From positions 15,196-79,195 of the forward strand of contig DAOMFV010000005.1 in NCBI GenBank assembly GCA_035430005.1: a DNA stretch of 64,000 nt, in the 5' to 3' direction. The stretch comes from Gemmatales bacterium. GTDB taxonomy: Bacteria > Planctomycetota > Planctomycetia > Gemmatales > HRBIN36. Shown here piece by piece: positions 34,091 to 47,608 of the stretch. Every line of letters begins with the position of its first letter. Position 1 is the stretch's first letter. The notes below the pieces were generated by a model. That model ran no database searches. It had not been told where the DNA came from and saw only the letters and a list, made by a program, of their open reading frames with translations. The translations under genes and the position numbers were made by a program.

Positions 34091-34352
34091 CTTCTGTTTT
34101 GATGTTTTTCTAGCGATGGCAATGCCCCCAAACTGAGTACGAAAATAGAAAGTGAACGGCGGGATCAAGCCATTCTACTAACGGCAAACAGCACTGCAGA
34201 TTCCAAAATTTGTAGGCATCCACCATTGATGAGCGATGGAGATTAGCAAGGAAGTATCATTCTACTGTTCAAAAGGCTACTACCGTCGACTACCGTTTTT
34301 CAAACTGCAATACCGCTAATACACGCTTGTTTTTGCATTTCTTTGCATCAGT

Positions 34353-34381
34353 TTGCAATGCTTATTTTCAATCGCTATAAT
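34353..34381 (+). promoter_or_regulatory. orphan sigma70-like promoter
   Basis: TTGCAA (34353-34358), a 17-nt spacer, then a perfect TATAAT (34376-34381), in an AT-rich tract. It is preceded by three phased TTTGCA motifs. There is no protein-coding ORF downstream on this strand. Confidence 0.4.
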
Positions 34382-34451
34382 GCGTAAAATCACTGGTTTT
34401 CAGGTTGAAATTACGTTTTTAACGTGGAGCCTTTTGAGCGTTTCGTAAAGC

Positions 34452-34483
34452 GGGGGTCGTGGGTTCAAATCCCACGGGCGGCT
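34452..34483 (+). other. tRNA 3'-half-like fragment (T-arm + acceptor 3' strand), not a complete tRNA
   Basis: GTGGG-TTCAAAT-CCCAC T-arm, followed by GGGCGGC and T. No complementary GCCGCCC 5' acceptor strand, D-arm or anticodon stem can be built from the 100 nt upstream. Confidence 0.5.
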
Positions 34484-34512
34484 TTGGTCCTAACTGATCA
34501 AATCACAATATG

Positions 34513-34833
34513 TTACGATTTCAACAGCAACAGCAGCATGCAAACTGGTGTTTGAGCGAGAATACTGTGAGGTAGTCGCACTGGCATGTGTATCCAAGTG
34601 CCAACTGATGCCGTTACCTTATCCTGGCCAAGGACGACATCGGCGTTGCCTTTGAGAAAATGAATGATCGCCGGCGTCGATGCAGTATGTTCTGAAAGTT
34701 CCTGGCCAGCAGCAAATCCAAATAACACTGCCTTCAGACGCTCATCCTGATATATCGTGTGGCTGAGTATTCCGTTTACCGGAGGTTCGATCTCGACATC
34801 CAGATTCTTCAAAAGGGTGTATGCGTTCATCAT
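34513..34833 (-). CDS. cupin-domain protein
   Basis: AGGAGA lies 5 nt upstream of the ATG at 34833. Cupin-like G.ELSEHTAS....IHFLKG.A.V..G......V..G.WIHMP. Confidence 0.7.
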   Translation of the reverse strand: MMNAYTLLKNLDVEIEPPVNGILSHTIYQDERLKAVLFGFAAGQELSEHTASTPAIIHFLKGNADVVLGQDKVTASVGTWIHMPVRLPHSILAQTPVCMLLLLLKS

Positions 34834-34890
34834 TTCGTCTCCTGGTGTCTGGTGGCAATGGTATGGCATCATCACTTTCGGTATATCTCG

Positions 34891-35211
34891 TTAGATCAAA
34901 CAGGCCCGATCGAGAGATCTCTGCATCATGCGAACCAACTTTACTCCCAAGGCCTGATGCAATAACGTGTCGCACCATTCCTGGTCTTCAAAGCGATAGC
35001 GTATCTGAACTGCACGCACCTCACCCGTCATCATCTTCTCGCGTGCGAGAGGCAGATCTATGGGGTTTTCGCCTACATGATCACTCGGTGATTGTTTCTC
35101 ATGCACACTGATAATCTCGGCATATGTCGCCAGATCCTTGAAGTACTGATCCAGCGTAGCTGAGTCTAACAGTTTGTCCCAGATGGCCGGCAACGGTTCC
35201 AATTGGTTCAT
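34891..35211 (-). CDS. hypothetical protein translationally coupled to napB
   Basis: ATGA start/stop overlap with the upstream tetrahaem gene. 106 aa with no Cys motifs, TM or signal peptide. No family recognised. Confidence 0.55.
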   Translation of the reverse strand: MNQLEPLPAIWDKLLDSATLDQYFKDLATYAEIISVHEKQSPSDHVGENPIDLPLAREKMMTGEVRAVQIRYRFEDQEWCDTLLHQALGVKLVRMMQRSLDRACLI

Positions 35212-36011
35212 GGCTGCCCTTTCTGAAAATCAACTTGATCCAAGGCGGCAGAGGGTGCATGGCACTGGGTACAGTTGGTGAGCCAGGGATGTGTTGTGCG
35301 AATGCCGGCCCGGGCGACTAAGCCATGGCAACTGGTGCAATCCTGCCGCATCCAGGTAGTGTGCGGTATGGTCGGCGGCGCTCCGGGCCAGGCGCGAGTG
35401 CCCGGACCGGCGCGTTTCGTGCCTTCGAAGTCATTCTCACTGAGGAAATGCCTAACGAGTGCAGATTCTGAACGGTTCTCTTCGACATGACATTGGGTGC
35501 AATTGGTGTAATGCGGATGACTGACTTTGGTAGCAATCCGATCACCCACTTTGATGCCTTCCGCATGACAAGCCAGGCAGTTAGAGACCTGTGGTTGGTT
35601 AATAGCATGGGGAATCACTGGAGGGGCTGAGTCATAGGCTCGATTGCGAGTTCGATCAGCCAATGCCACTTGCTTCATTTCATCGGTACGAATGACAGGA
35701 TCGAAAGGGCCTGGCTTGGCGAAACTCAACTTGCTGAGATCGGAGGACCAGCCACTATTGGCCTTGAGTTTGGCATTCGGCAACTCACTGTACGTGACAG
35801 CCTCTGGCACGTCACTCAAATTGATGCTCGCTTCAGCTCGTGTTTTCTCCAGCGGCAAAGGCTCGTTGATGCCTCGAAGAAAGCCCACGAGAGTAATGCC
35901 CAACGCGATCACGACGAACAGAACCACATACCGTTGCAGGATACCCGGCATGATCGCCGTGGCATCTCGTGGCAAGGCCTCATGAGAATCAGGCGGATGG
36001 GAGTGTTGCAT
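35208..36011 (-). CDS. napB: membrane-anchored tetrahaem cytochrome c made of two NapB-like dihaem units
   Basis: Two copies of the NapB signature: APPVIPH..(N9)..CLACH...SHPHYTNCTQCH and APPTIPH..(N7)..CTSCH...THPWLTNCTQCH. TM helix YVVLFVVIALGITLVGFL. GGAGG lies 6 nt before the ATG at 36011, directly after the napA stop. Confidence 0.8.
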   Translation of the reverse strand: MQHSHPPDSHEALPRDATAIMPGILQRYVVLFVVIALGITLVGFLRGINEPLPLEKTRAEASINLSDVPEAVTYSELPNAKLKANSGWSSDLSKLSFAKPGPFDPVIRTDEMKQVALADRTRNRAYDSAPPVIPHAINQPQVSNCLACHAEGIKVGDRIATKVSHPHYTNCTQCHVEENRSESALVRHFLSENDFEGTKRAGPGTRAWPGAPPTIPHTTWMRQDCTSCHGLVARAGIRTTHPWLTNCTQCHAPSAALDQVDFQKGQP

Positions 36012-36013
36012 GA

Positions 36014-38488
36014 TTAGCCTCCGCTGACCGGTGTCGTTTGATTCGCCTTGACCATACGCACCGCACACTTCTTGTAATCAGGCTGCTTGCTGTAAGGACA
36101 ATGTGCTTCCAGCGTCAGCAGGTTGCAGAGCAGCTTTTCATCAAAGAACGGGATGAAGAGATGCCCTGGCGGGCACTTGCCACGCCCATCGACCCAAGCT
36201 GGCAGCGTCAACGTGCCACGCCGGGTTTCGAGGCGAACGTGATCGCCCGTCTTGATGCCCAGTTGCCCTGCATCTTCCCGGCTGACTTCGACGTAGGAAC
36301 CAGGCATCGCTCTTCGCAATTGTGGTATCCGCATGGTCATGGTGCCAGTATGCCAATGTTCAAGTACACGGCCGGTATCAAGCCAAAGCGGATAGTCCTT
36401 GTCAGGCACTTCAGGTGGTGCCAGGTAAGGCCGGAACCAGATCAGCGCCTTGTCGTCCTTAGTGACAGAGTGATAAAACTGGATACCTTTTCCCTTCTCG
36501 ACATAGCTGTCGTAGCCTTCGATGAAGCGATAGCGGGTCTCCTGCCAGTCGCCGTTAGGCTTTTGAATCACGGGCCAGCGTAGCCCTCGAGCCTTGACCA
36601 GCTCAGCATACGGTGCCACATCCTTGTGCTTGATCTTGGTGAATTGTCGGTACTCGGTGAAGAGCTTTTCATCGACGTTGACTTTGCCATAGTAGTTCTC
36701 CCATTTCCAGATCTCGACGGGTTCACCCTTTTGATCTGTGACATGGAAGAGGAACTTGCCATCCTTGTCCTTCATACCGGGATGTCCCAGTTCGAGCAGC
36801 CGGTGGGCGACGGCGATCGTTTGCCAGCAGTCATCACGTGCCTGGCCGGGGGGAGGAACCATCTTGAACCACTGATGGGTTCGACGTTCGGAGTTACCAA
36901 ACACGCCATTCTTCTCGACCCACAGGGCTGAGGGTAAAATCAGGTCAGCCAGTTCAGTGGTGGCTGTCGGATAGACATCGGAGACGATGAGGAACTTGTT
37001 TTCCAGCCCTTTTTTGCTCCGGAACAACTTGTTGATGTTCGGCAGCGACTGGCCCGGATTGGTCACCTGCACCCAGATGGTATCAATATCACCGCCTTTG
37101 TCGGAAGGGGTGCAGAACTTCTCCCACATCAGCACGGTATGGTAGCCGATCTTGGGATTGATCCGGCCAGCGGGGAGGTTCCACAGATGTTCAGCCTTGG
37201 CACGCTGAACATCATCATCGACTTTGAGATCACCCGGAAGCGCATGGCACAGTGTCCCCACTTCTCGAACGGTACCACAGGCAGAAGGTTGCCCGGTCAA
37301 ACTTTGCGGTCCATCACCGGGTCTTCCAAAGTGCCCACTGAGCAAATGAATGCCATGTACCAGGTTATTAATGGCCGTACCCATGGTGTGCTGGTTCATG
37401 CCCATGCACCAGAGGCTGACGATCTTGAGCTGCGGATTACCAAACAACTTACCCAGCAGCTTCAGGTCATCTACGGAAAGCCCACTTAGTTCGCTGGCTT
37501 TCTCCGGGGTGTAGGTCGCCACCATCTGCTGAAATTGCTCAAAGGTAATCGGCTTGCCCATCAGGGTGCCAAACGTCTTGTATTCATCCCAATTCTTGAG
37601 CGTGTCGTAACGGGCAGGCTCCGCATCAGCACGGAAGTTGCAGTACTTTGTGACAAACTCAGCGTTGTAGGTCTTGTTAGCGATGAGTTGCTGAGCGATG
37701 CAATTCGCAATAGCCAGGTCGCCATTCGGCTTCATCGTCATGACGTGGTTGGCTTGCTCCGAAGTACGAGTGCGACGCTGGCTGATGTCCACCAGAACCA
37801 CTTTGTCGCCACGTAACCGACGGTCGATGATTCGGCTGAAGAGGACGGGGTGCATCTCGGCTGGGTTGTTGCCCCAGAGGATGACCACATCCGCCTGGTC
37901 GAGATCGTCGTAACAGTTGTACGGCTCATCCACGCCATAGGTACTGATGTATCCTGTGACGGCGGAGGCCATGCAGAGGCGGGCGTTAGGCTCGATCTGA
38001 TTACTTGCCAAGCCACCCTTCATGAACTTGTTGGCAGCATAGCCTTCTGGCACCGTCCACTGCCCCGAGCCATAAAAGGCAAAGCGATTGGGAGCACGCA
38101 TCACTCTTTGAGCAATGGTATTGATCGCTTCCTCCCAACTGATCGGCTCCATCTTGCCATTCTTGCGAAGCAGGGGAGTGGTCAGGCGATCTTTGCCATA
38201 AAGCACTGAGCCAACGTGATAGCCTTTGACGCAGAGCAAGCCTTTGTTAACCTCAGCTTGCCGATCCCCAGCGATAGCAACGACTCGGTTATCCTTGACC
38301 GCTACCTGTACGTGGCAGCCTGTACCGCAGAAACGGCATGGCGCTTTGTTCCAGGTAACATCGGGAATGACTGGCAGTTCCGTGCGTGGTGGCTGCCCGG
38401 CTGGAGCATTCTGTTCCATGGCCAGGGCGGTAGCAGCAGCCATGGCGCTGGTTCTGACAAAATCACGCCGGCTCAGTTCGTTAGTCAT
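36014..38488 (-). CDS. napA: periplasmic nitrate reductase catalytic subunit
   Basis: Tat signal SRRDFVRTSAMAAATALA. 4Fe-4S motif CRFCGTGC...C. ARLCMASAV (region of the Mo-ligand Cys). 824 aa. Flanked by napD and napB. Confidence 0.95.
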   Translation of the reverse strand: MTNELSRRDFVRTSAMAAATALAMEQNAPAGQPPRTELPVIPDVTWNKAPCRFCGTGCHVQVAVKDNRVVAIAGDRQAEVNKGLLCVKGYHVGSVLYGKDRLTTPLLRKNGKMEPISWEEAINTIAQRVMRAPNRFAFYGSGQWTVPEGYAANKFMKGGLASNQIEPNARLCMASAVTGYISTYGVDEPYNCYDDLDQADVVILWGNNPAEMHPVLFSRIIDRRLRGDKVVLVDISQRRTRTSEQANHVMTMKPNGDLAIANCIAQQLIANKTYNAEFVTKYCNFRADAEPARYDTLKNWDEYKTFGTLMGKPITFEQFQQMVATYTPEKASELSGLSVDDLKLLGKLFGNPQLKIVSLWCMGMNQHTMGTAINNLVHGIHLLSGHFGRPGDGPQSLTGQPSACGTVREVGTLCHALPGDLKVDDDVQRAKAEHLWNLPAGRINPKIGYHTVLMWEKFCTPSDKGGDIDTIWVQVTNPGQSLPNINKLFRSKKGLENKFLIVSDVYPTATTELADLILPSALWVEKNGVFGNSERRTHQWFKMVPPPGQARDDCWQTIAVAHRLLELGHPGMKDKDGKFLFHVTDQKGEPVEIWKWENYYGKVNVDEKLFTEYRQFTKIKHKDVAPYAELVKARGLRWPVIQKPNGDWQETRYRFIEGYDSYVEKGKGIQFYHSVTKDDKALIWFRPYLAPPEVPDKDYPLWLDTGRVLEHWHTGTMTMRIPQLRRAMPGSYVEVSREDAGQLGIKTGDHVRLETRRGTLTLPAWVDGRGKCPPGHLFIPFFDEKLLCNLLTLEAHCPYSKQPDYKKCAVRMVKANQTTPVSGG

Positions 38489-38754
38489 GACTGTGCTCCC
38501 TGGGCCAGTACCTCGGGTTCGTGATCAGCAACGGAAACGTAGGCAACATGGACATCGAGTACGCCGGGCAACTCGCTGAGCCAGCGATGCCAGCGTAGCG
38601 AATCCTCCGGTGCTGTCACCTCCATCACAACTGACAGGCGTTGACCAGCCAACTCACCGACAGTAAATGGGCCAGCTTGCTGAATAGCTGCCATGGCTGA
38701 TTGGATAACGTCAACTTCTGGTTCGAATGCCACTACTAAACCGGAGATGTACAT
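38485..38754 (-). CDS. napD: NapD chaperone
   Basis: MYISGLVVAFEPE... (the NapD-type H/YISSLVV start). ~89 aa. The stop overlaps the napA start (ATGA). An alternative upstream start is at 38787. Confidence 0.8.
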   Translation of the reverse strand: MYISGLVVAFEPEVDVIQSAMAAIQQAGPFTVGELAGQRLSVVMEVTAPEDSLRWHRWLSELPGVLDVHVAYVSVADHEPEVLAQGAQS

Positions 38755-38813
38755 GGCGCTCTCACTCCGTTCGAGAAGAACTCCCAAGGTAATCTAGCAG
38801 AGCCATCGTCTAT

Positions 38814-38843
38814 ATCAAGAATAAAAGAATGATTATTCTTGAT
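38814..38843. promoter_or_regulatory. operator-like inverted repeat in the divergent napD / cytochrome c promoter region
   Basis: ATCAAGAATA-N10-TATTCTTGAT, with perfect 10-bp arms; the hexamer AAGAAT also recurs in the spacer. Each arm contains a TTGAT(A/T) -35-like hexamer. On the + strand: TTGATT 38839-44, 17 nt, TAAGTT. On the - strand: TTGATA, 16 nt, TAGATT. Confidence 0.5.
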
Positions 38844-38892
38844 TTAATCCTCTATCCCGTGTAAGTTGACGATGTACCTCGGGGAGATGCTT

Positions 38893-39570
38893 ATGCCACA
38901 CGCCCCTGAACCTGTGCCGTCCTTCGCACGATCTAGAATGGTCAAAGGACTAAGCTTTGTCTTGGTGATTGCTCTATTAGCAGTACTATTGCTGTTCCCC
39001 AAGCCTCAAAGTGTGGTCGTACCTGAGAAAGTTCAAACCGCATCTGCTGTTAATGAAGAACGCCATTTCGAAACCTTCATCCGCAAACCTGCTGGACCAC
39101 CTTCGGTTAAGACTGGCCTGCTTGATCCCCATGGGCAGCCGGTCAGTGTAGCTTGCAATACCTGTCATGCCACCAGGTCGCCCAATGCCGAACTGCGTGT
39201 CGGTGGAAATCTTTCGACATTTCATCAAGGTCTGAAGGGCAATCACGGCAACTTGACTTGTGTCTCCTGTCACAATGGTAACGAAGGCTATCAGACCCTT
39301 CGCCTTGCCGACGGTAAGTCATTGCCCTTCACCGAAGTGATGCAACTCTGTGCCCAGTGCCATGGCCCGCAGTTTCGTGATTATTCCCACGGAGCCCATG
39401 GCGGCATGACAGGTTACTGGGATCTCACCCAGGGGCCACGGCAACGCAACAACTGCATTGATTGCCACGATCCACATTTCCCCAAGTATCCCACCGTGCG
39501 TCCCGCTCAAGGGCCTCACGACCGTTTTCAGTCCTCCCCTCATGACCAGAAAGGAACAGGCCATGAGTAA
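38893..39570 (+). CDS. membrane-anchored tetrahaem cytochrome c (c3/ActA-like)
   Basis: CNTCH, CVSCH, CAQCH and CIDCH at ~35-aa spacing. TM helix LSFVLVIALLAVLLLF. Start set at ATG 38893 (GGGGAG 6 nt upstream). The ORF track begins at TTG 38866, which would overlap the predicted -10. Confidence 0.8.
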   Translation: MPHAPEPVPSFARSRMVKGLSFVLVIALLAVLLLFPKPQSVVVPEKVQTASAVNEERHFETFIRKPAGPPSVKTGLLDPHGQPVSVACNTCHATRSPNAELRVGGNLSTFHQGLKGNHGNLTCVSCHNGNEGYQTLRLADGKSLPFTEVMQLCAQCHGPQFRDYSHGAHGGMTGYWDLTQGPRQRNNCIDCHDPHFPKYPTVRPAQGPHDRFQSSPHDQKGTGHE

Positions 39571-40495
39571 CAAGAAATTCTCGCTTCCTGTTCTCGGCGA
39601 GGTAGACCGTCGCACTGCTGTCAAAGCGGGAGCTGTCACCCTGGGCCTGGCCATGCTGGCCAAGGCGATTCAACCCGTGATGGAGTGGAGTTCCAATCTC
39701 ACCGCCGACGAGTTCCTGCAGAAGCACTACAAGGAACTGAAACCCAAGGAACTTGATGTTGTCATCAAACGACTTCAGGAAGAAGCACTGCATGAATATG
39801 GGCGTGAGGTGAAGATCAAGAACCCGCAGGCTAAGTCTGGTGTGAAGTATGCTTACGCTCTCAATCTCAGCATCTGTATCGGGTGCCGCAAGTGTGCGGA
39901 AGCCTGTCACCTCGAAAACAATCACGACCGGGCAACACATAACAGCTACATCCGCGTCTTTGAAATGCAGAAGGGTGGCATCGATTTCGAGAAGGGCAAC
40001 TGCACCTACGATAATCCGGTGCCTGCTCCTGACAAGTTCTACATGCCCGTCCAATGTCAGCAGTGCGATAACCCTCCCTGTGTGAGTGTTTGCCCGGTCG
40101 AAGCCACCTGGAAAGAAAAGGATGGCCTTGTCGTCGTCGATTACAACTGGTGCATTGGCTGCAGATATTGCGAAGCAGCCTGCCCTTACCATGCCCGCCG
40201 ATTTAACTGGACTAAGCCCGAGATCAGCCCGAAAGAAATCAATCCGAACCAGGGGTATCTCTCCAATCGTGTCAGGCCTCAGGGCGTGATGGAGAAATGC
40301 ACGTTCTGCCTGCATCGGGTACGGGAAGGGCGACTGCCCGCCTGTTTGGAAGCCTGCCCCACGGGTGCCCGTGTCTTTGGGAATATCCTCGATCCCAAAT
40401 CGGAGATACGCTGGGTGCTGGAAAACAAGCGAGTCTTCGTTCTCAAGGAAGAACTCGGTACCAAACCTAACTTCTTCTACTTCTTTGACAAGTAA
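39563..40495 (+). CDS. periplasmic 4x[4Fe-4S] ferredoxin-type subunit (NrfC/PsrB/HybA-like)
   Basis: Tat-like DRRTAVKAGAVTLGLAML. Four Cys clusters: CIGCRKCAEAC, CQQCDNPPCVSVCP, CIGCRYCEAACP, CTFCLHR...CLEACP. The ATG overlaps the upstream stop. Confidence 0.85.
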   Translation: MSNKKFSLPVLGEVDRRTAVKAGAVTLGLAMLAKAIQPVMEWSSNLTADEFLQKHYKELKPKELDVVIKRLQEEALHEYGREVKIKNPQAKSGVKYAYALNLSICIGCRKCAEACHLENNHDRATHNSYIRVFEMQKGGIDFEKGNCTYDNPVPAPDKFYMPVQCQQCDNPPCVSVCPVEATWKEKDGLVVVDYNWCIGCRYCEAACPYHARRFNWTKPEISPKEINPNQGYLSNRVRPQGVMEKCTFCLHRVREGRLPACLEACPTGARVFGNILDPKSEIRWVLENKRVFVLKEELGTKPNFFYFFDK

Positions 40496-40506
40496 GGGAG
40501 GTACTC

Positions 40507-41781
40507 ATGAGTTCCCTTGCTACACCATCGAAAGAGCCTTCCTCGGCACTACTCAGCTATCCACGCTTCCTGCGACAAGCACTTCATGTCTCAACAGAAG
40601 GCACTTGGGTCTTCTATCTCTGGATGACCGTGCTGACTGCGGTATCGCTCGTGGGCGCCAACGCCTGGGCTGTCCAGGTGCGAGACGGCATGGCCCGAAC
40701 CGGGATGTCCGACCATGTTAGCTGGGGGCTTTACATCGCCAACTTCACCTTTTGCGTCGGGCTGGCTGCCGGCGGTGTGATGATGGTGATTCCTGCCTAT
40801 CTCTACCACGATGAAGAAATGCATGATGTGGTCATTGTCGGCGAAATCGTCGCCATTGCTGCCATCATCATGAGTACCTTATCGGTCGTCGTCGATCTGG
40901 GCCGTCCCGATCGTTTCTGGCATCTCATGCCCGGTATCGGTCGATTCAATTGGCCCATTTCGATGCTGACCTGGGATATCATTGTTCTAAACGGCTACCT
41001 GCTCATCAATCTGCACATCGTTGGCTACCTGCTCTACATGCGTTTTCTCGGTCGCAAGCCTAACCCGAAGTGGTACATGCCTTTTGTGTTTCTCTCCATT
41101 ATCTGGGCTATCAGCATTCATACGGTAACTGCTTTTCTTTACTGTGGCCTGGGTGGTCGTCCCTTCTGGAACACGGCACTGCTGGCCCCACGCTTCCTGG
41201 CTTCGGCTTTTGTCTCGGGACCATGCTTTATCATCCTGTTGCTACAACTCATTCGTGCCACCAGCCGTTTCAACATCGGTGAAGCGCCCATCCGCACGTT
41301 GATACAGATCATTCGGGTGGCTATCTGCATTAATCTGCTGATGACAGTCTCGGAGTTGTTCACCCTTTTTTACACGGGCGGAGGACATGCTGCAGCAGGA
41401 CAGTACCTTTTCTTTGGTTCTCACGGAAAGACAGGTCTTGTTCCCTGGATATGGACATCCTTGATACTCAGTATCCTCGGTTGCCTGCTCTTCTTGTCTC
41501 CCGGAGTGATGAAGAAAGGCTGGCTGTTAACCCTGGCCTGCATCATCTGCTTTGTGGCCATATGGATCGAAAAAGGCATGGGGCTGATCATCCCCGGCTT
41601 TATTCCATCCACCCTGCATGAGGTAGTAGAGTACGTTCCTAGCCTGACAGAGTGGAAGATAACGGTGGGTATCTGGGCTTTTGGTATGGTAGTCTTAACC
41701 GTCATCTTGAAGATTGCTATAGCCGTCTTCAACAACGAGATGAAACTCAACGGCAACACTATCCAGCAAGAAGCAGTATGA
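40507..41781 (+). CDS. NrfD/PsrC-family integral membrane quinol-interacting subunit
   Basis: 424 aa, ~10 TM helices, NrfD-like sequence (WGLYIANFTFCVGLAAGG...RPDRFWH...). It follows the FeS subunit after an 11-nt gap. Confidence 0.85.
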   Translation: MSSLATPSKEPSSALLSYPRFLRQALHVSTEGTWVFYLWMTVLTAVSLVGANAWAVQVRDGMARTGMSDHVSWGLYIANFTFCVGLAAGGVMMVIPAYLYHDEEMHDVVIVGEIVAIAAIIMSTLSVVVDLGRPDRFWHLMPGIGRFNWPISMLTWDIIVLNGYLLINLHIVGYLLYMRFLGRKPNPKWYMPFVFLSIIWAISIHTVTAFLYCGLGGRPFWNTALLAPRFLASAFVSGPCFIILLLQLIRATSRFNIGEAPIRTLIQIIRVAICINLLMTVSELFTLFYTGGGHAAAGQYLFFGSHGKTGLVPWIWTSLILSILGCLLFLSPGVMKKGWLLTLACIICFVAIWIEKGMGLIIPGFIPSTLHEVVEYVPSLTEWKITVGIWAFGMVVLTVILKIAIAVFNNEMKLNGNTIQQEAV

Positions 41782-42224
41782 CTCCCTACGGTAAGACAGC
41801 ACAGCATGCCATCGCCGCAGTCAGCCTGCTGGCCCAGGTCTATTCTCAGAATAAGAAACTGAGTTCGATCGATATCGCCAAAGAACGTGGATTGCCCAAG
41901 CCAGTCGTCGCCAAGGTGTTGACTGTCTTATCGCAAGCCGGCATCGTTGCCGGCGCTCCGGGACCTGGAGGCGGCTACTGCCTGGCCAAGCCTCCTGAGA
42001 AAATCACCCTGGCTGATGTGGCTGAGTGCTTCGACCGCCAGAAGGAAACTGTCTGCTGTCCCTTTGGACCTACCTATTGTGGAACGGGGAATCCCTGTCC
42101 ATTGCATCATCAACTAACTGCTATTCGTGATCGGTTAGTTCATTTCTTGAATACGAATACGCTTGCATCCTTCACGAAAGTTGCCAGACTGAAGAAAATC
42201 CCTGCCTCAGACGCCGAGGAATAG
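41778..42224 (+). CDS. Rrf2-family transcriptional regulator (NsrR/IscR-like)
   Basis: [20 protein letters not shown]...[28 protein letters not shown]...[10 protein letters not shown] (Rrf2 wHTH). Cys cluster [23 protein letters not shown] overlap with the nrfD-like stop, and the gene ends 2 nt before the nrfH ATG. Confidence 0.85.
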
Positions 42225-42226
42225 GC

Positions 42227-42706
42227 ATGAAAGTACTCAAGTGGTTGATTGGTGGCAGCCTGGCGAGTCTTCTCGTCTGGATCATGCTGGGTCTGTGTGT
42301 CGGTTCGGGTACCTATACCGTCTACTATGGCGAAGGTCTTTCTTATCTCAGCAGCAATCCCAAAGCCTGCGTCAACTGCCACATCATGCGTGAGCAATAT
42401 GATGGATGGCAAAAGTCGAGTCATCACGCTGCTGCCACCTGCGTCGATTGCCATCTACCCCATGAGTTCGTCGGCAAATGGATAGCCAAAGCTGAGAATG
42501 GCTTCTGGCATTCCAAGGGCTTCACTCTGCAGGACTTTCACGAACCGATCCGCATTCATCAGAAGAACGCCAATATTCTGCAGGCGAACTGCGTTCAGTG
42601 CCATCAGGATTTCGTCCATGATGTGGCAGTTACTTCCACAGCCAACCATGAAAGTCTGAAGTGCACCCATTGTCACATGCATGTGGGTCATGGTCCCACT
42701 CGCTGA
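42227..42706 (+). CDS. nrfH: NrfH, membrane tetrahaem quinol dehydrogenase (NapC/NirT family)
   Basis: N-terminal TM. CVNCH, CVDCH, CVQCH, CTHCH. 159 aa. Directly upstream of nrfA. Confidence 0.9.
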
Positions 42707-42741
42707 CCTGATTATTCGCTGTAACTCTTTGCCTTTGAGGA

Positions 42742-44187
42742 TTGATCGTGTCTAACCAAGCAACTACGAAACCACGAAGCTGGCTGGGACAACTCGTTCT
42801 CTGCCTGATCATCGCCGGCGTTACCTTTGGTGTCATGCTGCTCTGGCAGAACATTGCAGAGCGAAAGCAGGAATCCAGGCACCAGGTTTTCAAGGTCACT
42901 GATGTTTCAGAAGAGACTATCGACCCCAGCATCTGGGGGAAGAATTACCCTCGGCAATACGACAGCTACTTGCGCACCGTCGATATCGAACGCACCAAGC
43001 ATGGCGGTTCCGAAGCCTTCCAGAAGCTCGATGAAGATCCGCGCTGGCGAACGCTGTTTAAAGGCTACGCCTTTGGAGTGGATTACCGCGAAGAGCGTGG
43101 CCACGCTTACATGCTGTCTGACCAGGATCAAACAGAACGAGTCAAGCAGTTCAAACAACCGGGAGCCTGCCTGCACTGCCATGCTTCGATCATTCCCGCC
43201 TACAGAGAACAAGGAGTCAAAGCAGGCATTCCTAAGGATGAAGCTCATCGCCAGGAAGCCATCATGAAAGGATTCGAAACAGTCTGTGCCATGCCCTATG
43301 CCGAAGGACGCAAGCTCGTTTCGCATCCAGTGAGTTGTGTCGATTGTCACCATCCCGATACCATGGCACTTCGTGTGACCCGCCCCGGGTTTCTCAATGG
43401 CGTCAAAGCGCTTGCGGAATCGAACGACCCAACGCCCCATCTCCCCAGCATCGAACGCTGGCGCAAAGGTTCTCGCAAAACACCCTACGACCCCAACACG
43501 GAGGCCAGCCGGCAGGAGATGCGTTCGATGGCCTGTGGGCAGTGTCACGTCGAATACTATTTCAAGGGCGAAGGCAAACTGCTGACCTACCCTTGGCAGA
43601 AGGGCCTCAAGGCTGATCAAATCGAGAGTTACTACGACGAGGTGGGCTGGAAGGATTGGGTTCATGCTGACTCAGGTGCCCCGGCGCTGAAGGCGCAGCA
43701 TCCGGAGTTTGAAATGTGGTCGCAGGGTATTCATGCCCGTTCAGGTGTCTCCTGTGCCGATTGCCACATGCCGTACAAGCGGGAAGGAGCCATCAAAGTC
43801 AGCGATCACCATGTTCGCAGTCCCATGCTCAATATCTCCCGGGCCTGCCAGACCTGTCACCACTATCCCGAACAGGAGATCTTGAATCGTGTCACTGCCA
43901 TTCAGGACCGCACCAAGGCACTCATGTTACGGGCGGAAGACGCAACGGTAGATCTAATCAAGAACTTAGCTGCTGCAAAATTGGAAGGCATGAATGATGA
44001 GCAATTGAAAGCTGCCCGTGCTCTACACCGCAAGGCCCAATGGCGGCTCGATTTCGTCGCCGCTGAGAACTCGATGGGTTTCCATGCACCTCAGGAAGCA
44101 GCACGGCTACTCGGTGAAGCCATCGATTACGCCCGACAAGGGCAAGTGAAGGTACTGGAACTCAGCAAGCCCAAGCCAGGCAAGTAA
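42742..44187 (+). CDS. nrfA: pentahaem cytochrome c nitrite reductase (ammonia-forming)
   Basis: NrfA-like blocks: YPRQYDSY, GYAFGVDYREERGH, CGQCHVEYYF, KAQHPEFEMW, CADCHMPY, CQTCHH. Five haem motifs: CLHCH, CVDCH, CGQCH, CADCH, CQTCH. The start may be TTG 42742 or GTG 42748 (GAGGA upstream). Confidence 0.9.
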   Translation: MIVSNQATTKPRSWLGQLVLCLIIAGVTFGVMLLWQNIAERKQESRHQVFKVTDVSEETIDPSIWGKNYPRQYDSYLRTVDIERTKHGGSEAFQKLDEDPRWRTLFKGYAFGVDYREERGHAYMLSDQDQTERVKQFKQPGACLHCHASIIPAYREQGVKAGIPKDEAHRQEAIMKGFETVCAMPYAEGRKLVSHPVSCVDCHHPDTMALRVTRPGFLNGVKALAESNDPTPHLPSIERWRKGSRKTPYDPNTEASRQEMRSMACGQCHVEYYFKGEGKLLTYPWQKGLKADQIESYYDEVGWKDWVHADSGAPALKAQHPEFEMWSQGIHARSGVSCADCHMPYKREGAIKVSDHHVRSPMLNISRACQTCHHYPEQEILNRVTAIQDRTKALMLRAEDATVDLIKNLAAAKLEGMNDEQLKAARALHRKAQWRLDFVAAENSMGFHAPQEAARLLGEAIDYARQGQVKVLELSKPKPGK

Positions 44188-44204
44188 CGAACCAGGCAAA
44201 AACC

Positions 44205-44232
44205 AAAAGGGGCAGACAATGTCTGCCCCTTC
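44205..44232. terminator. bidirectional stem-loop between convergent nrfA and the outer-membrane protein gene
   Basis: AAAA-GGGGCAGACA-A-TGTCTGCCCC-TT. 10-nt complementary arms, an A-run on one side and TT on the other. Confidence 0.6.
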
Positions 44233-44254
44233 TGCAGGTGTGATCAATAGATCA

Positions 44255-45898
44255 TTACCAGCGATAGCCATAAATGATGTAAAGCAAGTCTGAGTCAACC
44301 GCTTTGTTTGGCCCAGCGGTGTTCTCCAGGAAGCTGCCGCCGAAAAGTTTGCTGTAGCCCACCATCAAGTCCGAATGCTTGGTCAGATGGAAGTTGGCGG
44401 TGAAATCAAGTTCGGTACCCACATCACGCCCGGCTGATCCATTGGGAGAACGGCGATAGGCGCTGCCTGCTGCGTTGTAAAGGGCGTCCTCACTCTCAGC
44501 CAGCCAGAAATGATGGGCCTGGAACCAGAGTGTCATCCAGTTGACGGGGTACAGGAATAAGTGAGCATTTAGATCCTGGATATTCTGCCTGCCTACCAGG
44601 TCAGCCCAACCCAGGTAGTAGTGGCCAAAAGGAAAGAGCTGATTGAAAGTGTTGTAGTTACCAGAGTTGGGATTCGAATCACCACTGGCATAGTCGTAGT
44701 AGAGCCAGAAGGTCGGATTCATAGGCAACTGATCAAAGTGATAGCCAGCACCTGCGGTAGCCATGCCGGCAACGATGCTTTCTTTGCCTCGTTCACCGAG
44801 TTGCAGTGCGACTTCGCCATCCCATAAGAAGTTGTACTTATCGCCAGAGTAACGAGTGCCCAGGGTATGAGCCTGGAAGGGGGCACGAGCAATACCTTGT
44901 TGGACAACGGTGTTCTCGTTATCGAGATAGAGATAATAGAAATCGACAGACTGCCCTTTTTCTGGTCGATACGTTGTCCAGAGACCGGCAAAGTTCTGCT
45001 TCTCATCCCATGAATCGAGCTTGTTGGCATCGGGAATGACAGGCCTGACCCAGAACGCGGTGACATCCCAATCCTCACCCTGCCTGAAAGCTGACACACC
45101 CTGGAACGTACGGCGAGTATTAGCCCAATCCAGCGATGAGATCAGTCGCTGGGAGCCAAGGAGCATTTCCTGACGACCGACTCGCACATAGACGGGTTTA
45201 CCATCGACTTCGCCCAGTTTCATGTCCATGAACAAGTTGAGGAAGTCAGCCCGGTTAACATCATTAGGCAGGGGAGGTAGATCATATCCTGTGATATCGG
45301 CTGAGATAAACTCGGTGTAGATTCGGAACTTGTCTTGGTACCAGAGGTCGCCATAAGCACGAACTCGTTCAACGGTGTATGTATTATTCACCTCGGTCAG
45401 TCGGCTGTTGCCTTCGTTCATATTGCGAATCCAGGCTTGGCCACCTGTAGAAAAGAGCCAATTGTCGCCAATACGAATTCGCTTGAGGGGATCAAAGAAA
45501 TCGTGACTGGTGTTATTTGGATCATCCAAATATCGGAAATCAGCGTTGAAGAGGCCGGGCTGCATCAAAGCAAAGGGCGGGTAACCATACTTGGGCGGAC
45601 TCTCTCTCCATTCGCCACGAAGTTCATCCAGCACCGAATAGTAGCCAGGTCCCTTGGGAGGGTTAGGAAAATTGCCGGTCCGTGGCGTGGGCCAGATGGG
45701 TGGCACGTTTTTGAAGTCAAATGCTCCATTCCCTGAGCATGTGTCACAGGGTGCAACGACAACTACAGGAGCTGCGATTTCCTTAACTGGTGCTTCTTGA
45801 GCACATATAGTAGGTGATTCTGCCAAAAAAGCGCTGATACACCCCACCATCAGAACGTGGCACCAGGGCCAATGGTTTCGGACCATGACACCCTCCAT
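44255..45898 (-). CDS. putative outer-membrane beta-barrel protein (alginate-export/porin-like, tentative)
   Basis: Signal-like N-terminus, alternating beta-strand pattern with aromatic girdles, and a C-terminal ...LLYIIYGYRW ending in an aromatic residue, as in OMP beta-signals. Confidence 0.45.
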   Translation of the reverse strand: MEGVMVRNHWPWCHVLMVGCISAFLAESPTICAQEAPVKEIAAPVVVVAPCDTCSGNGAFDFKNVPPIWPTPRTGNFPNPPKGPGYYSVLDELRGEWRESPPKYGYPPFALMQPGLFNADFRYLDDPNNTSHDFFDPLKRIRIGDNWLFSTGGQAWIRNMNEGNSRLTEVNNTYTVERVRAYGDLWYQDKFRIYTEFISADITGYDLPPLPNDVNRADFLNLFMDMKLGEVDGKPVYVRVGRQEMLLGSQRLISSLDWANTRRTFQGVSAFRQGEDWDVTAFWVRPVIPDANKLDSWDEKQNFAGLWTTYRPEKGQSVDFYYLYLDNENTVVQQGIARAPFQAHTLGTRYSGDKYNFLWDGEVALQLGERGKESIVAGMATAGAGYHFDQLPMNPTFWLYYDYASGDSNPNSGNYNTFNQLFPFGHYYLGWADLVGRQNIQDLNAHLFLYPVNWMTLWFQAHHFWLAESEDALYNAAGSAYRRSPNGSAGRDVGTELDFTANFHLTKHSDLMVGYSKLFGGSFLENTAGPNKAVDSDLLYIIYGYRW

Positions 45899-46200: not shown

Positions 46201-47493
46201 ATGTTTGCCATTCGTTTCTACGCAGTCCTGCTGCTCTACATTCTCGGTCTACCATCACTCCGTGCCGATGATATCGAACACGATCCCATCAATTACTCCA
46301 AAGCAACACCGAACAACATCATCACTCAACTCCAGGAACGCCTGAATGGTGGAAAAACTTCAATTCATTATGACGATGACACCGGCTATTTGAAAGGTGT
46401 TCTCAAAGAACTGAAGATTCCCCTTTCTTCTCAGGTTCTGGTTTTCTCCAAGACCAGCATGCAACGACCACGCATCAATCCCAAGACTCCTCGAGCGCTC
46501 TACTTCAACGATGACACCTATATAGGGTTTTGCCTGCATGGTTCCGTGCTGGAAGTTTCTACTACGGACTCCACTTTAGGCACCGTGTTCTACACCGTCG
46601 ATCAGGAGCGTCACAACAAACCAGTCATCACAAGGCAGACCGATAGTTGTCTCATTTGTCATGCCTCATCGTACAATCACGGCCTACCAGGACACCTCGT
46701 CCGATCAGTTTATCCTGATCGGAACGGAGAGCCATTGCTCGCTTCTGGTTCCTATCGAACGGATCAGACCAGCCCCTTCTCCGAACGTTGGGGCGGCTGG
46801 TATGTCACTGGAACGCATGGCAAACAGGAACACCTCGGTAATCGCTTCTATCACAAACGAAATGAAGCGATCGATGATTCTCTTCGTACTCAGAACGTCA
46901 CTGATCTTTCACAACACTTTACCGTAGGCCTCTATCCTTCGCCTCACAGCGATCTCGTCGCTCTCATGGTGCTGGAACATCAAACAGCGATGCATAATCG
47001 AATCACCAGGGCAACGCTCGATACCCGATTGGCGCTCTACTACCAGGATGACATGAATAAATCGTTCAACGAAAAGCCTGGAACGGTCTTTGATTCGACT
47101 AAAAGACGTATCCAAAGTGTCAGCGATGAACTGGTTAGATATCTACTTTTTAGCGGCGAAGCCAGACTGACTGATCCCATTGCAGGCTCATCTACTTTTG
47201 CCCAGGAGTTCAGTCAGCGTGGGCCCTTAGACAAGCAAGGCCGATCGCTTCGACAGTTTGATCTGAAGACCAGGCTGTTTCGCTATCCATGCAGCTATCT
47301 TATCTATTCGGAATCCTTTGACGGCATGCCTGTCGCTGTTCGTGAAGTAGTTCTAAAACAACTGTTCGATACTTTGACCGGCAAAGATCAATCAGCTGCC
47401 TACGCCCATCTTAGCCCAGCCGACCGCAAGGCTATTCTGGAGATTTTGCGAGAGACCAAGCCAAATCTGCCTGATTACTGGAGAATGAAATAG
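46201..47493 (+). CDS. secreted mono-haem (single CxxCH) protein of unknown function
   Basis: Signal peptide MFAIRFYAVLLLYILGLPSLRA. A single CLICH. Conserved-looking blocks VLVFSKTSMQ, PRALYFNDD, RWGGWYVTGTHG, RYPCSYLIYS. Confidence 0.55.
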   Translation: MFAIRFYAVLLLYILGLPSLRADDIEHDPINYSKATPNNIITQLQERLNGGKTSIHYDDDTGYLKGVLKELKIPLSSQVLVFSKTSMQRPRINPKTPRALYFNDDTYIGFCLHGSVLEVSTTDSTLGTVFYTVDQERHNKPVITRQTDSCLICHASSYNHGLPGHLVRSVYPDRNGEPLLASGSYRTDQTSPFSERWGGWYVTGTHGKQEHLGNRFYHKRNEAIDDSLRTQNVTDLSQHFTVGLYPSPHSDLVALMVLEHQTAMHNRITRATLDTRLALYYQDDMNKSFNEKPGTVFDSTKRRIQSVSDELVRYLLFSGEARLTDPIAGSSTFAQEFSQRGPLDKQGRSLRQFDLKTRLFRYPCSYLIYSESFDGMPVAVREVVLKQLFDTLTGKDQSAAYAHLSPADRKAILEILRETKPNLPDYWRMK

Positions 47494-47522
47494 GAATTAC
47501 GATACTACCATTCTAAGTTCTC

Positions 47523-47608
47523 CTACATAGGTAGTTGTGCGGTGGGCCAGACATTCTTGTCTGGCCTGCACAGACAAGAATGTCTGTGCCACCTAATCTC
47601 ATATGTAG
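47523..47608. repeat. 86-nt imperfect palindrome with a 15-bp perfect central stem
   Basis: AGACATTCTTGTCTG (47549-47563), loop GCCTGCA, then CAGACAAGAATGTCT (47571-47585). Outer arms CTACATA (47523-29) and TATGTAG (47602-08). Confidence 0.6.

What the first reader, a model, noticed from the sequence alone, without database searches (positions are those of the whole stretch)
38893..41781. Molybdopterin-less cytochrome c / 4Fe-4S / NrfD-like membrane module placed between nap and nrfHA: candidate alternative quinol dehydrogenase for Nap
Seen in sequence: three tightly linked genes are present. The first encodes a TM-anchored tetrahaem cytochrome c. The second is a Tat-type 4-cluster ferredoxin whose ATG overlaps the upstream stop. 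The third is a 424-aa NrfD/PsrC-type membrane protein after an 11-nt gap. The window contains napD, napA and napB but no napC, napG or napH, while NrfA has its own NrfH. Established knowledge: FeS + NrfD pairs are the quinol-interacting modules of NrfBCD, Psr/Phs/Ttr, Qrc and alternative complex III, and in those systems they are joined to a catalytic or additional subunit. Inference: here the module would pass electrons from menaquinol via the tetrahaem protein to the anchored tetrahaem NapB and NapA. That amounts to a NrfBCD/ActABC-like stripped-down complex recruited to Nap. I do not know of this arrangement being described experimentally and cannot check databases.
Basis: partly seen in the sequence, partly recalled or inferred. 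Interest (0 to 1): 0.6.

Follow-up and report, generated by a model that had tools for sequence, protein, structure and literature searches.

The report
Nap-linked cytochrome/FeS/NrfD quinol dehydrogenase module
Three tightly linked genes (membrane-anchored four-haem cytochrome, four-cluster iron-sulfur protein, NrfD-type membrane protein) sit next to the periplasmic nitrate reductase genes in nearly every related genome from several phyla, so they are very probably the untested, unnamed link that carries electrons from membrane quinol to that enzyme in place of NapC or NapGH.

Summary
Window 38893-41781 (+) holds three translationally coupled genes: a TM-anchored tetrahaem cytochrome c, a Tat-type four-cluster FeS protein and a 424-aa, 10-TM NrfD-family protein. 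The window has no napC, napG or napH.

I examined 82 related loci from Planctomycetota, Verrucomicrobiota, Myxococcota and Methylomirabilota-labelled MAGs. Of the 62 with at least 4 kb of upstream DNA, 61 carry an intact napA beside the triad and one a fragmented napA. In six loci napA lies just downstream on the same strand. In one of these, read in full, the genes form one operon with the NrfD-like stop overlapping the napD start. nrfHA is adjacent only in the window and its closest relative.

By sequence the FeS and NrfD-like pair is closest to DsrO/DsrP, and PGAP labels the Gimesia aquarii copy "DsrP". There is no dsrMK and the cytochrome is not DsrJ. By composition the triad matches Geobacter Cbc4 (CbcSTU).

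The nap linkage has been noticed in passing in two genome papers. I found no name for it and no experimental test. Whether napC or napGH exists elsewhere in these genomes could not be checked.

Verdict: a new variant of a known kind, of moderate to high interest.

The parts
38893..39570 (+). Membrane-anchored tetrahaem cytochrome c (225 aa; Cbc4 CbcS-like by composition). Proposed electron exit of the module towards NapB.
   Evidence: One TM segment at residues 17-35 and four CXXCH motifs. Eight invariant His in 42 homologues: four in the haem motifs plus H111, H118, H169 and H195. This fits four bis-His haems. All 57 orthologues in related loci have exactly four CXXCH.
39563..40495 (+). Tat-exported four-cluster ferredoxin (310 aa; DsrO/CbcT/PsrB-like).
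   Evidence: Pfam Fer4_11 1e-22. NCBIfam DsrO 192.7 bits (cut-off 200), TtrB 154.8, QrcC 153.5, NrfC 123.9. Nearest PDB chains are PsrB 2vpw_B at 1.7e-40, then ArrB and ActB. The RR-x-x-x-K motif is conserved in 56 of 57 homologues and 15 of the 16 cluster Cys are invariant.
40507..41781 (+). NrfD-family integral membrane subunit (424 aa, 10 TM segments). Proposed menaquinol-oxidising subunit.
   Evidence: Pfam NrfD 7e-37. NCBIfam DsrP 425.7 bits (cut-off 350), QrcD 56, HybB 26.5, NrfD 19.8. Nearest solved structure is ActC of alternative complex III (profile against 8k9e_C, 3.4e-9, full length). The NrfD-family loop D130-L-G-R-P-D-R-F-W-H139 and D69/H70 are invariant.
41778..42224 (+). Rrf2-family transcription regulator with a Cys cluster. 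Its ATG overlaps the NrfD-like stop codon (ATGA).
   Evidence: Pfam Rrf2 4e-26 and NCBIfam rrf2_super 84 bits. A homologue directly follows the NrfD-like gene in 21 of the 70 scorable related loci and within the stretch in about 25 of all 82.
38814..38841 (.). Palindrome TCAAGAATAAAAGAATGATTATTCTTGA in the divergent napD/cytochrome promoter region. Candidate operator of the Rrf2 regulator.
   Evidence: Inverted repeat found. TCAAGAA-N14-TTCTTGA occurs upstream of the cytochrome gene in 18 of 21 loci with an adjacent rrf2 gene, against 3 of 49 without (Fisher p=6e-11).
38485..38787 (-). napD (NapA maturation chaperone).
   Evidence: Pfam NapD 6e-5 (23.5 bits, below the cut-off of 28). The position upstream of napA is conserved in related loci.
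36014..38488 (-). napA, catalytic Mo-bisPGD subunit of the periplasmic nitrate reductase.
   Evidence: NCBIfam NapA 875.7 bits, E=3e-263 (cut-off 904). Nearest PDB chains are the heterodimeric-type NapA proteins 3ml1_A, 2nya_A and 1ogy_A (680-705 bits). A Tat motif SRRDFV, a CxxCxxxC motif and RLCMAS are visible in the sequence.
35208..36011 (-). napB variant: 267 aa, N-terminal TM helix, four haems. A tandem duplicate of the dihaem NapB domain.
   Evidence: Pfam NapB 7.7e-13. TM at 30-48 and four CXXCH. The PPxIPH signature occurs twice and the first half aligns weakly to NapB 3ml1_B. Of 50 orthologues, 48 have four haem motifs and two have five, and all have an N-terminal hydrophobic segment.
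34891..35211 (-). Conserved small cytoplasmic ORF (106 aa) after napB. Function unknown.
   Evidence: tblastn finds a homologue in 57 of 82 related loci. No Pfam family. The AlphaFold model has pLDDT 75.5 and no significant PDB fold match.
42227..44187 (+). nrfH (42227-42706) and nrfA (42742-44187). Probably on the same transcript as the triad in this window only.
   Evidence: NCBIfam NrfH 167 bits (cut-off 134) and Pfam Cytochrom_C552 1e-130. The rrf2-nrfH gap is 2 nt. The only strong terminator-like hairpin in 34300-44500 is at 44204-44234. nrfA is adjacent in only 1 of 82 other loci.

Best explanation
The three genes encode a membrane-bound menaquinol:cytochrome c oxidoreductase dedicated to the periplasmic nitrate reductase.

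Inferred mechanism, by analogy with PsrBC and ACIII structures and with the model proposed for Geobacter Cbc4:
1. Quinol is oxidised at a site in the 10-helix NrfD-like subunit near the periplasmic face.
2. Electrons pass through the four Fe-S clusters of the Tat-exported ferredoxin.
3. They then pass through the four bis-His haems of the membrane-anchored cytochrome.
4. They are handed to the membrane-anchored tetrahaem NapB, then to the NapA [4Fe-4S] cluster and the Mo cofactor, where nitrate is reduced to nitrite.

The module therefore takes the place of NapC or NapGH.

Shown here: gene content, cofactor motifs, topology signals, family relationships, and the near-obligate, cross-phylum genetic linkage with napDAB, including single-operon arrangements and a shared control region carrying an Rrf2-associated operator.

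Inferred: the direction of electron flow, the physical contacts, and that no other quinol dehydrogenase serves Nap in these organisms.
For: 1. Linkage. 71 of 82 related loci carry napA (at least 55% identity) within the retrieved stretch. Of 62 loci with at least 4 kb upstream, 61 have an intact napA and one a fragmented napA. nrfA is adjacent in 1 of 82.

2. Breadth. The linked cluster occurs in Planctomycetota (Gemmatales, Pirellulales, Planctomycetales, Phycisphaerae), Verrucomicrobiota, Myxococcota (Sorangium cellulosum So ce56, Archangium) and Methylomirabilota-labelled MAGs.

3. Operon fusion. In six loci napA lies just downstream of the triad on the same strand. In L071, read in full, the order is cyt-FeS-NrfD-napD-napA-napB-orf with a 4-nt overlap of the NrfD-like stop and the napD start.

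4. Co-divergence. Pairwise distances of NapA correlate with those of the FeS protein, the cytochrome and NapB (r=0.72-0.78). That is as well as the triad members correlate with each other.

5. A matching partner. The NapB of these clusters is always a TM-anchored four-haem (rarely five-haem) form. This places NapAB at the membrane beside the anchored cytochrome.

6. Non-catalytic cytochrome. It has four CXXCH plus four further invariant His and no CXXCK.

7. No alternative nearby. There is no NapC, NapG or NapH in the window. No NapC or NapH family recurs in any of the 82 neighbourhoods.

8. Co-regulation. An Rrf2 gene ends the triad operon, and its palindrome sits in the shared divergent nap/triad promoter.

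9. Precedent. The same three-subunit composition in Geobacter Cbc4 is regarded as a quinol:cytochrome c oxidoreductase. [quoted passage not shown]
Against: There is no experimental evidence of any kind.

The rest of each genome could not be searched, so a napC, napGH, cymA or bc1-type route to Nap elsewhere is not excluded.

In 15 related loci a NapG/NapF-like ferredoxin also follows napB, which shows that extra electron-transfer components can be present.

In the window itself the triad shares a strand, and probably a transcript, with nrfHA rather than nap.

The 80 loci are the best hits to this protein, so the linkage is shown for this clade (at least 64% identity) only. Relatives at 46-48% identity keep the triad but are not next to nap.

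The distance correlations are confounded by shared phylogeny.
Confidence: 0.72

Rival explanations
1. The triad is a general quinol:cytochrome c oxidoreductase hub, like alternative complex III or CymA. It would feed several periplasmic acceptors (Nap, Nrf, cbb3 oxidase, others). Nap is then only one client, and the nap linkage reflects co-regulation under low oxygen.
For: More distant relatives of the triad sit in other contexts, such as multihaem cytochrome clusters and a cupredoxin protein. Geobacter CbcS reduces a soluble periplasmic cytochrome in vitro. The window is a low-oxygen respiration island, with nrfHA, a protoglobin sensor kinase and cbb3 oxidase genes nearby.
Against: Within this clade the linkage is to napA specifically (61 of 62 informative loci), not to nrf (1 of 82) or to oxidase genes. 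NrfA has its own NrfH. The operon fusions with napD-napA and the clade-specific anchored tetrahaem NapB point to a dedicated partner.
Confidence: 0.15
2. In this window the triad serves the nitrite reductase. It is co-transcribed with rrf2-nrfH-nrfA and would act as an NrfBCD-like second electron input to NrfA.
For: The genes share a strand, have overlapping or 2-nt gene junctions, and have no terminator before 44204.
Against: A complete NrfH (167 bits, above the cut-off) is present. nrfHA is absent from 81 of the 82 other loci that have the triad. Scores against the NrfC and NrfD models are far below their cut-offs (123.9 against 377.6; 19.8 against 347.6).
Confidence: 0.05
3. The genes are DsrJOP, part of the DsrMKJOP sulfite-reduction or sulfur-oxidation complex, as NCBI's pipeline names the Gimesia aquarii orthologue.
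For: The NCBIfam DsrP equivalog model is passed (425.7 bits against a cut-off of 350). DsrO is just missed (192.7 against 200). The source name 'DsrP' appears.
Against: No dsrM or dsrK family recurs in any neighbourhood. The cytochrome has four haems, not three, and matches no DsrJ model. The hosts are Planctomycetota, Verrucomicrobiota and Myxococcota. The same DsrP model also scores 236-433 bits on relatives that lie in non-dsr contexts, so it is not specific.
Confidence: 0.02
4. The module runs in reverse, as a quinone reductase like Qrc. It would take electrons from a periplasmic donor into the quinone pool.
For: Qrc and Hyd-2 show that NrfD-type modules can reduce quinone (review text).
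Against: Its constant partner is a high-potential terminal reductase, and no periplasmic dehydrogenase recurs in the neighbourhoods. QrcD and QrcC scores are far below their cut-offs, and no QrcB-like protein is present.
Confidence: 0.04

Closest known systems
Geobacter sulfurreducens Cbc4 complex (CbcS/CbcT/CbcU; GSU0068-0070)
   Same: The three-subunit composition is the same: an N-terminally anchored tetrahaem cytochrome with four bis-His haems and a linker, a 4x[4Fe-4S] protein, and an integral membrane subunit. It is regarded as a menaquinol:cytochrome c oxidoreductase. CbcT is described as orthologous to DsrO, which is the best NCBIfam match of the window's FeS protein.
   Different: Cbc4 is linked to extracellular electron transfer and has no assigned acceptor. 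It is not next to nap. Sequence-level orthology to the window's proteins could not be tested because the Geobacter sequences were not obtainable here.
DsrJOP module of DsrMKJOP
   Same: This is the closest named sequence family for the membrane subunit (DsrP model passed) and the FeS subunit (DsrO model nearly passed). The layout is also the same: periplasmic cytochrome, periplasmic FeS protein and a 10-TM NrfD-type subunit.
   Different: There is no DsrM or DsrK. The cytochrome is tetrahaem rather than the trihaem DsrJ. The genetic partner is Nap, not DsrAB/DsrC.
Alternative complex III (ActABCDEF)
   Same: ActC is the nearest solved structure for the membrane subunit. ActB's C-terminal half aligns to the FeS protein (about 1e-33). 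The wiring logic is the same: quinol, then FeS, then an anchored multihaem cytochrome, then the acceptor.
   Different: There is no molybdopterin-like ActB1 domain and no ActD, ActE or ActF. The cytochrome has four haems rather than five. Suarez et al. [quoted passage not shown]
NapC and NapGH, the known quinol dehydrogenases of Nap
   Same: The proposed role is the same: delivering electrons from (mena)quinol to NapB/NapA.
   Different: The proteins are unrelated. NapC is a single NapC/NirT tetrahaem protein that oxidises quinol itself. NapH is a four-TM Fe-S protein paired with NapG. Neither is present in the window.
NrfBCD and Shewanella SirCD
   Same: Both are FeS plus NrfD-type quinol dehydrogenases without a molybdenum subunit that feed periplasmic cytochromes. 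SirCD can replace CymA for several acceptors.
   Different: NrfD has 8 TM helices and scores 19.8 bits here. NrfB is a soluble pentahaem protein. SirCD is reported not to support nitrate reduction.

Membership tests
NrfD/PsrC superfamily (Pfam PF03916) | Significant match to the family model over the two four-helix-bundle core | tested here: met
   128.1 bits, E=7e-37, residues 65-349 against model positions 3-294 of 313. Ten hydrophobic segments.
DsrMKJOP complex | DsrP-type membrane subunit (NCBIfam NF045798, cut-off 350) | tested here: met
   425.7 bits. The model also scores 236-433 bits on relatives in non-dsr contexts, so it is not specific.
DsrMKJOP complex | DsrO-type FeS subunit (NF045797, cut-off 200) | tested here: inconclusive
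   192.7 bits, just below the cut-off.
DsrMKJOP complex | Trihaem DsrJ cytochrome | tested here: not met
   The window protein and all 57 orthologues have four CXXCH motifs. No DsrJ model was matched at E<=0.01.
DsrMKJOP complex | DsrM (dihaem b) and DsrK (HdrD-like) encoded alongside | tested here: not met
   No such genes appear in the window neighbourhood or in the called genes of L001 and L002. No such family recurs in the 82 loci.
Alternative complex III | ActB with an N-terminal molybdopterin-like domain fused to the FeS domain | tested here: not met
   The FeS protein is 310 aa and has ferredoxin domains only. It aligns only to the C-terminal third of ActB.
Alternative complex III | Pentahaem ActA plus the ActD, ActE and ActF subunits | tested here: not met
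   The cytochrome is tetrahaem. There is no second NrfD-like gene and no small membrane or monohaem subunit genes next to the triad.
NrfBCD | NrfC and NrfD equivalog models | tested here: not met
   NrfC 123.9 bits against a cut-off of 377.6. NrfD 19.8 bits against 347.6.
Qrc (QrcABCD) | QrcC and QrcD equivalog models and a QrcB molybdopterin-like subunit | tested here: not met
   QrcC 153.5 bits against 400. QrcD 56.3 bits against 570. No QrcB-like gene is present.
Cbc4 (CbcSTU)-type quinol:cytochrome c oxidoreductase | Composition: anchored tetrahaem bis-His cytochrome, 4x[4Fe-4S] protein and an integral membrane subunit, encoded as one operon | tested here: met
   Searches compared with the description.
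Cbc4 (CbcSTU)-type quinol:cytochrome c oxidoreductase | Sequence orthology to GSU0068-0070 | not tested
The paper's sequence figure is held only as an image.
Periplasmic nitrate reductase (Nap) system | NapA with Tat signal, N-terminal [4Fe-4S] motif and Cys Mo ligand in the C-M-A-S context | tested here: met
   NapA model E=3e-263. The score of 875.7 bits is just under the equivalog cut-off of 904. The motifs are visible. Best PDB matches are NapA proteins.
Periplasmic nitrate reductase (Nap) system | NapB cytochrome and NapD chaperone | tested here: met
   Pfam NapB 49.1 bits (cut-off 25.1). NapD is weak at 23.5 bits (cut-off 28) but positionally conserved.
Periplasmic nitrate reductase (Nap) system | A NapC or NapGH quinol dehydrogenase | tested here: not met
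   Absent from the 64-kb window and not recurrent in the 82 neighbourhoods. The rest of the genome is not testable with these tools.

The most novel reading that the evidence does not exclude
NapAB, the anchored tetrahaem cytochrome, the FeS protein and the NrfD-like subunit form one stable membrane-bound supercomplex. In it the 10-helix NrfD-like subunit couples quinol oxidation to proton translocation. Periplasmic nitrate reduction, textbook non-electrogenic when it runs through NapC, would then be energy-conserving in a large part of the Planctomycetota, Verrucomicrobiota and Myxococcota. The evidence does not exclude this. Both NapB and the cytochrome are membrane-anchored. The cofactor-less membrane subunit is as conserved as the catalytic NapA (mean p-distance 0.32 for each). 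Many charged and polar residues are invariant, as discussed for the ion channels proposed in this family.
Probability: 0.25. Interest if true: 0.8.

Novelty: new variant of a known kind. Interest (0 to 1): 0.6.

Why it matters
Nap is taught as depending on NapC or NapGH, or in Campylobacter on the bc1-type Qcr complex. A 2025 review still calls the NapC replacement in NrfH-containing nitrate respirers poorly understood.

This locus type offers a concrete candidate. It is widespread: at least 587 matching stretches in a one-genome-per-species collection, spread across at least four phylum-level groups. It includes cultured organisms with complete genomes, among them Gimesia aquarii, Stieleria, Adhaeretor, Sorangium cellulosum So ce56 and Archangium.

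There are three consequences:
1. Annotation. NCBI's pipeline names the membrane subunit DsrP, a sulfate-reduction protein, and JGI calls it HybB-like. Gene-marker surveys count nrfC and nrfD as DNRA markers, so homologues such as these could be mis-assigned.
2. Bioenergetics. An NrfD-type module may make Nap-dependent respiration electrogenic.
3. Function of the wider family. The Cbc4/DsrJOP-like three-subunit family currently has no assigned acceptor in Geobacter. Here it would gain a member with a defined physiological partner.

Tried and rejected
- **Cytochrome structure.** The AlphaFold model was unusable (mean pLDDT 52), so no fold comparison was attempted. A sequence search of the PDB gave only haem-motif-level matches.
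- **Literature from memory.** I recalled that Thermogutta terrifontis had a Nap with an ACIII-like partner. This was wrong: the paper describes NarGHI plus bc1.
- **Literature searches.** Ten full-text searches found no paper that analyses or tests the nap-linked triad. Two one-sentence mentions exist (Dedysh 2020; Suarez 2023). The main review of NrfD-like complexes does not mention Nap. The Deferrivibrio, Caldithrix, Thermosulfurimonas and Desulfurivibrio papers describe other Nap arrangements.
- **Names of distant relatives.** Source names for relatives at 36-49% identity were uninformative: 'polysulfide reductase NrfD' or 'HybB-like'.
- **CbcS sequence.** The paper's supplement holds it only as an image.
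- **An error of mine.** My first tblastn used a NapB query that was frame-shifted by one base. I corrected this.
- **Rejected readings.** NrfBCD, Qrc, ACIII and DsrMKJOP membership are rejected; see the membership tests.

Full report
**Observation**

- The first gene (38893-39570) encodes a 225-aa protein with one N-terminal hydrophobic helix and four CXXCH motifs.
- The second gene (39563-40495) starts inside the first gene's last codons (ATGAGTAA). It encodes a 310-aa protein with a twin-arginine motif and 16 cysteines in four complete four-Cys groups.
- The third gene (40507-41781) follows after 11 nt. It encodes a 424-aa NrfD-family protein (Pfam E=7e-37) with ten hydrophobic segments.

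The divergent genes are napD, napA (NCBIfam NapA E=3e-263) and a 267-aa, TM-anchored, four-haem NapB. A search of the whole window found no NapC/NirT protein other than NrfH, and no NapG or NapH. The Fe-S membrane protein at 53855-55252 is CcoG, part of a cbb3 oxidase cluster. The window is a contig of a Gemmatales (Planctomycetota) MAG.

**What the proteins are related to**

Against NCBI's curated models, the membrane subunit passes the DsrP equivalog (425.7 bits, cut-off 350). It scores only 56 bits on QrcD, 26.5 on HybB and 19.8 on NrfD. The FeS protein is closest to DsrO (192.7 bits, cut-off 200), ahead of TtrB, QrcC, ArrB and NrfC.

Among solved structures:
- The membrane subunit's only relatives are ActC subunits of alternative complex III (profile E=3.4e-9 over the full length).
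- The FeS protein is nearest to PsrB, ArrB and the C-terminal part of ActB.
- The cytochrome has no informative relative, and its AlphaFold model was too poor to use.

An alignment of 42 homologues of the cytochrome shows eight invariant histidines. Four are in the haem motifs and four lie elsewhere. This is the pattern expected for four bis-His electron-transfer haems rather than a catalytic haem.

**Comparative genomics: the main result**

The membrane subunit is very strongly conserved. It has more than 8000 database relatives, and the top 120 are 71-100% identical. In Gimesia aquarii and in an 8.3-Mb planctomycete genome the arrangement is the same: napD-napA-napB divergent from cytochrome-FeS-NrfD-rrf2, with no nrfHA.

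A scan of one genome per species returned at least 587 matching stretches, and the best 80 were fetched (64-84% identity). They come from all major planctomycete orders, Verrucomicrobiota, Myxococcota (Sorangium cellulosum So ce56, Archangium, Sandaracinaceae) and MAGs labelled Methylomirabilota.

tblastn with the window's proteins shows the triad intact wherever the contig allows, with the following napA association:
- napA (at least 55% identity) is present in 71 of 82 loci.
- Of the 11 without it, nine are contigs that end less than 2.5 kb upstream of the triad. One has napD, napB and a fragmented napA. One (L057) has 342 nt of upstream DNA.
- Among the 62 loci with at least 4 kb upstream, 61 have an intact napA.
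- nrfA is adjacent in one locus only, the closest Gemmatales relative.

Most clusters are divergent (64 loci). In six loci napA lies just downstream of the triad on the same strand. In the Bythopirellula locus L071, the only one of these read in full, the genes form one operon: cytochrome-FeS-NrfD-napD-napA-napB-small ORF. The NrfD-like stop overlaps the napD start by 4 nt.

The NapB of these clusters always has four haem motifs (rarely five) and an N-terminal hydrophobic segment. It is a tandem duplicate of the dihaem NapB domain, with the PPxIPH signature present twice. NapA itself is closest to the heterodimeric NapAB-type enzymes.

Pairwise distances of NapA track those of the FeS protein, the cytochrome and NapB (r=0.72-0.78). 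This is consistent with inheritance as a unit, although shared phylogeny confounds the measure.

**Limits of the clade**

Relatives of the membrane subunit at 44-48% identity keep the same three-gene layout. One upstream cytochrome has four CXXCH motifs, and another has three CXXCH plus one CXXXCH. These relatives lie in other contexts:
- next to a cupredoxin-domain protein (L083);
- inside a multihaem cytochrome cluster (L085);
- as two tandem triads (L087).

None is accompanied by nap or dsrMK. These relatives also score 236-433 bits on the DsrP model. The nap-linked triad is therefore one branch of a broader family of three-subunit cytochrome/FeS/NrfD modules. The 'DsrP' label that NCBI's pipeline gives the Gimesia copy reflects a broad model, not a Dsr function.

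**Mechanism**

The best-supported reading is a dedicated menaquinol dehydrogenase for Nap. The proposed path runs from a quinol site in the NrfD-like subunit through four Fe-S clusters and four haems of the anchored cytochrome to four haems of the anchored NapB, and then to NapA.

The gene content, cofactor motifs, export and anchor signals, and the linkage are shown here. The electron path and its direction are inferred by analogy with PsrBC and ACIII structures and with the model proposed for Geobacter Cbc4. I put this at about 0.72.

The main rival is a general quinol:cytochrome c hub with Nap as one client (about 0.15). The reading that it serves NrfA in this window has some local support from co-transcription. 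Junctions of 2 nt or less join the NrfD-like gene, rrf2 and nrfH (35 nt separate nrfH from nrfA), and the only strong terminator lies after nrfA. It is contradicted by the presence of NrfH and by the absence of nrfHA from 81 of 82 other loci.

**Regulation**

A palindrome, TCAAGAA-N14-TTCTTGA, lies in the divergent napD/cytochrome promoter region (38814-38841). Across loci it occurs upstream of the cytochrome gene in 18 of 21 loci that have an rrf2 gene directly after the NrfD-like gene. It occurs in 3 of 49 that do not (Fisher p=6e-11). It is therefore the likely operator of this Rrf2 regulator. It implies joint control of nap and the triad, which supports the functional link.

**Comparison with what is known**

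By composition the triad matches the Geobacter sulfurreducens Cbc4 complex: anchored tetrahaem CbcS with four bis-His haems, 4x[4Fe-4S] CbcT and membrane subunit CbcU. Cbc4 is thought to be a quinol:cytochrome c oxidoreductase and its acceptor is unknown. CbcT has been called orthologous to DsrO. I could not test sequence orthology to CbcSTU.

Membership of NrfBCD, Qrc, ACIII and DsrMKJOP fails on defining features, as set out in the membership tests.

The nap linkage itself has been noticed twice in passing. Dedysh et al. [quoted passage not shown] Suarez et al. 2023 note an ACIII-like cluster lacking the molybdopterin subunit next to nap in two MAGs, which are my loci L055 and L070. The review of NrfD-like complexes does not mention Nap. 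A 2025 review calls the NapC replacement in NrfH-containing organisms poorly understood. I found no experimental work.

**Verdict**

It is a new variant of a known kind: a Nap system with a Cbc4/DsrJOP-like quinol dehydrogenase and a duplicated, anchored NapB. Interest is 0.6.

The most novel reading still open is an energy-conserving, membrane-bound Nap supercomplex, at a probability of about 0.25.

Noticed in passing
window 38814-38841 and 41778-42224; related loci L001-L082: The palindrome TCAAGAA-N14-TTCTTGA upstream of the cytochrome gene co-occurs with an rrf2 gene placed directly after the NrfD-like gene: 18 of 21 loci against 3 of 49 (p=6e-11). It is the likely operator of a Cys-containing Rrf2 regulator that controls the divergent nap/triad promoters.
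   Followed up: yes
window 34891-35211 (-): A small cytoplasmic ORF (106 aa) follows napB and is conserved in 57 of 82 related loci. It carries the motif A-x-Q-[IV]-R-Y...W-x-D-T. It has no Pfam family. Its AlphaFold model (pLDDT 75.5, an alpha/beta fold) has no significant PDB fold match. It is an unrecognised member of this nap cluster type.
   Followed up: partly
window 35208-36011 (-): NapB here is a 267-aa, TM-anchored, four-haem protein made of two NapB-like halves, with PPxIPH present twice. This form is universal in the clusters that carry the triad.
   Followed up: partly
window 39563-40495 (+), residues 105-115; related loci: The first cluster motif of the FeS protein is dimorphic across the clade. 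It is C-x-G-C-R-K-C in 26 of 57 homologues, including the window, and C-N-G-N-G-K-C in 31 of 57. The second form lacks one Cys, as in the [3Fe-4S] sites of ActB and QrcC.
   Followed up: partly
L002 3806-4450 (-) and 14 other loci; absent from the window: A 214-247-aa ferredoxin with an N-terminal RR motif follows napB in 15 loci. It scores below the cut-offs on both NapG (111.8 bits) and NapF (62.2 bits), and no NapH is present.
   Followed up: partly
NCBIfam NF045798 (DsrP) against the window protein and P0246-P0296: The DsrP 'equivalog' model scores 236-433 bits on NrfD-like proteins from nap-linked and other non-dsr triads. Several exceed the cut-off of 350, so the automatic name 'DsrMKJOP subunit DsrP' in Planctomycetota genomes is misleading.
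   Followed up: partly
window 34513-34875 (-); L055, L057, L060, L070, L075: A small cupin-domain gene recurs in about 10 loci. In Phycisphaerae it sits between the FeS and NrfD-like genes, which matches the 'barrel' gene in Suarez et al. 2023, Fig. 6.
   Followed up: no
window 44255-45898 (-): An outer-membrane 'alginate export' family beta-barrel (Pfam 7.5e-94) lies next to nrfA, and homologues recur in 13 of the related loci. It may be an anion porin for nitrate or nitrite.
   Followed up: no
window 46201-59046 (+): Downstream genes make the region a low-oxygen respiration island. They include a 430-aa protein with one CXXCH and no family match (also present in 5 loci), a protoglobin-domain histidine kinase, a sigma-54 response regulator, a fused ccoNO, ccoP, ccoG and a copper P-type ATPase.
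   Followed up: no
L083, L085, L087: More distant triads (44-48% identity of the membrane subunit) occur away from nap. One lies next to an 860-aa cupredoxin-domain protein, one inside a multihaem cytochrome cluster, and one as two tandem triads.
   Followed up: partly
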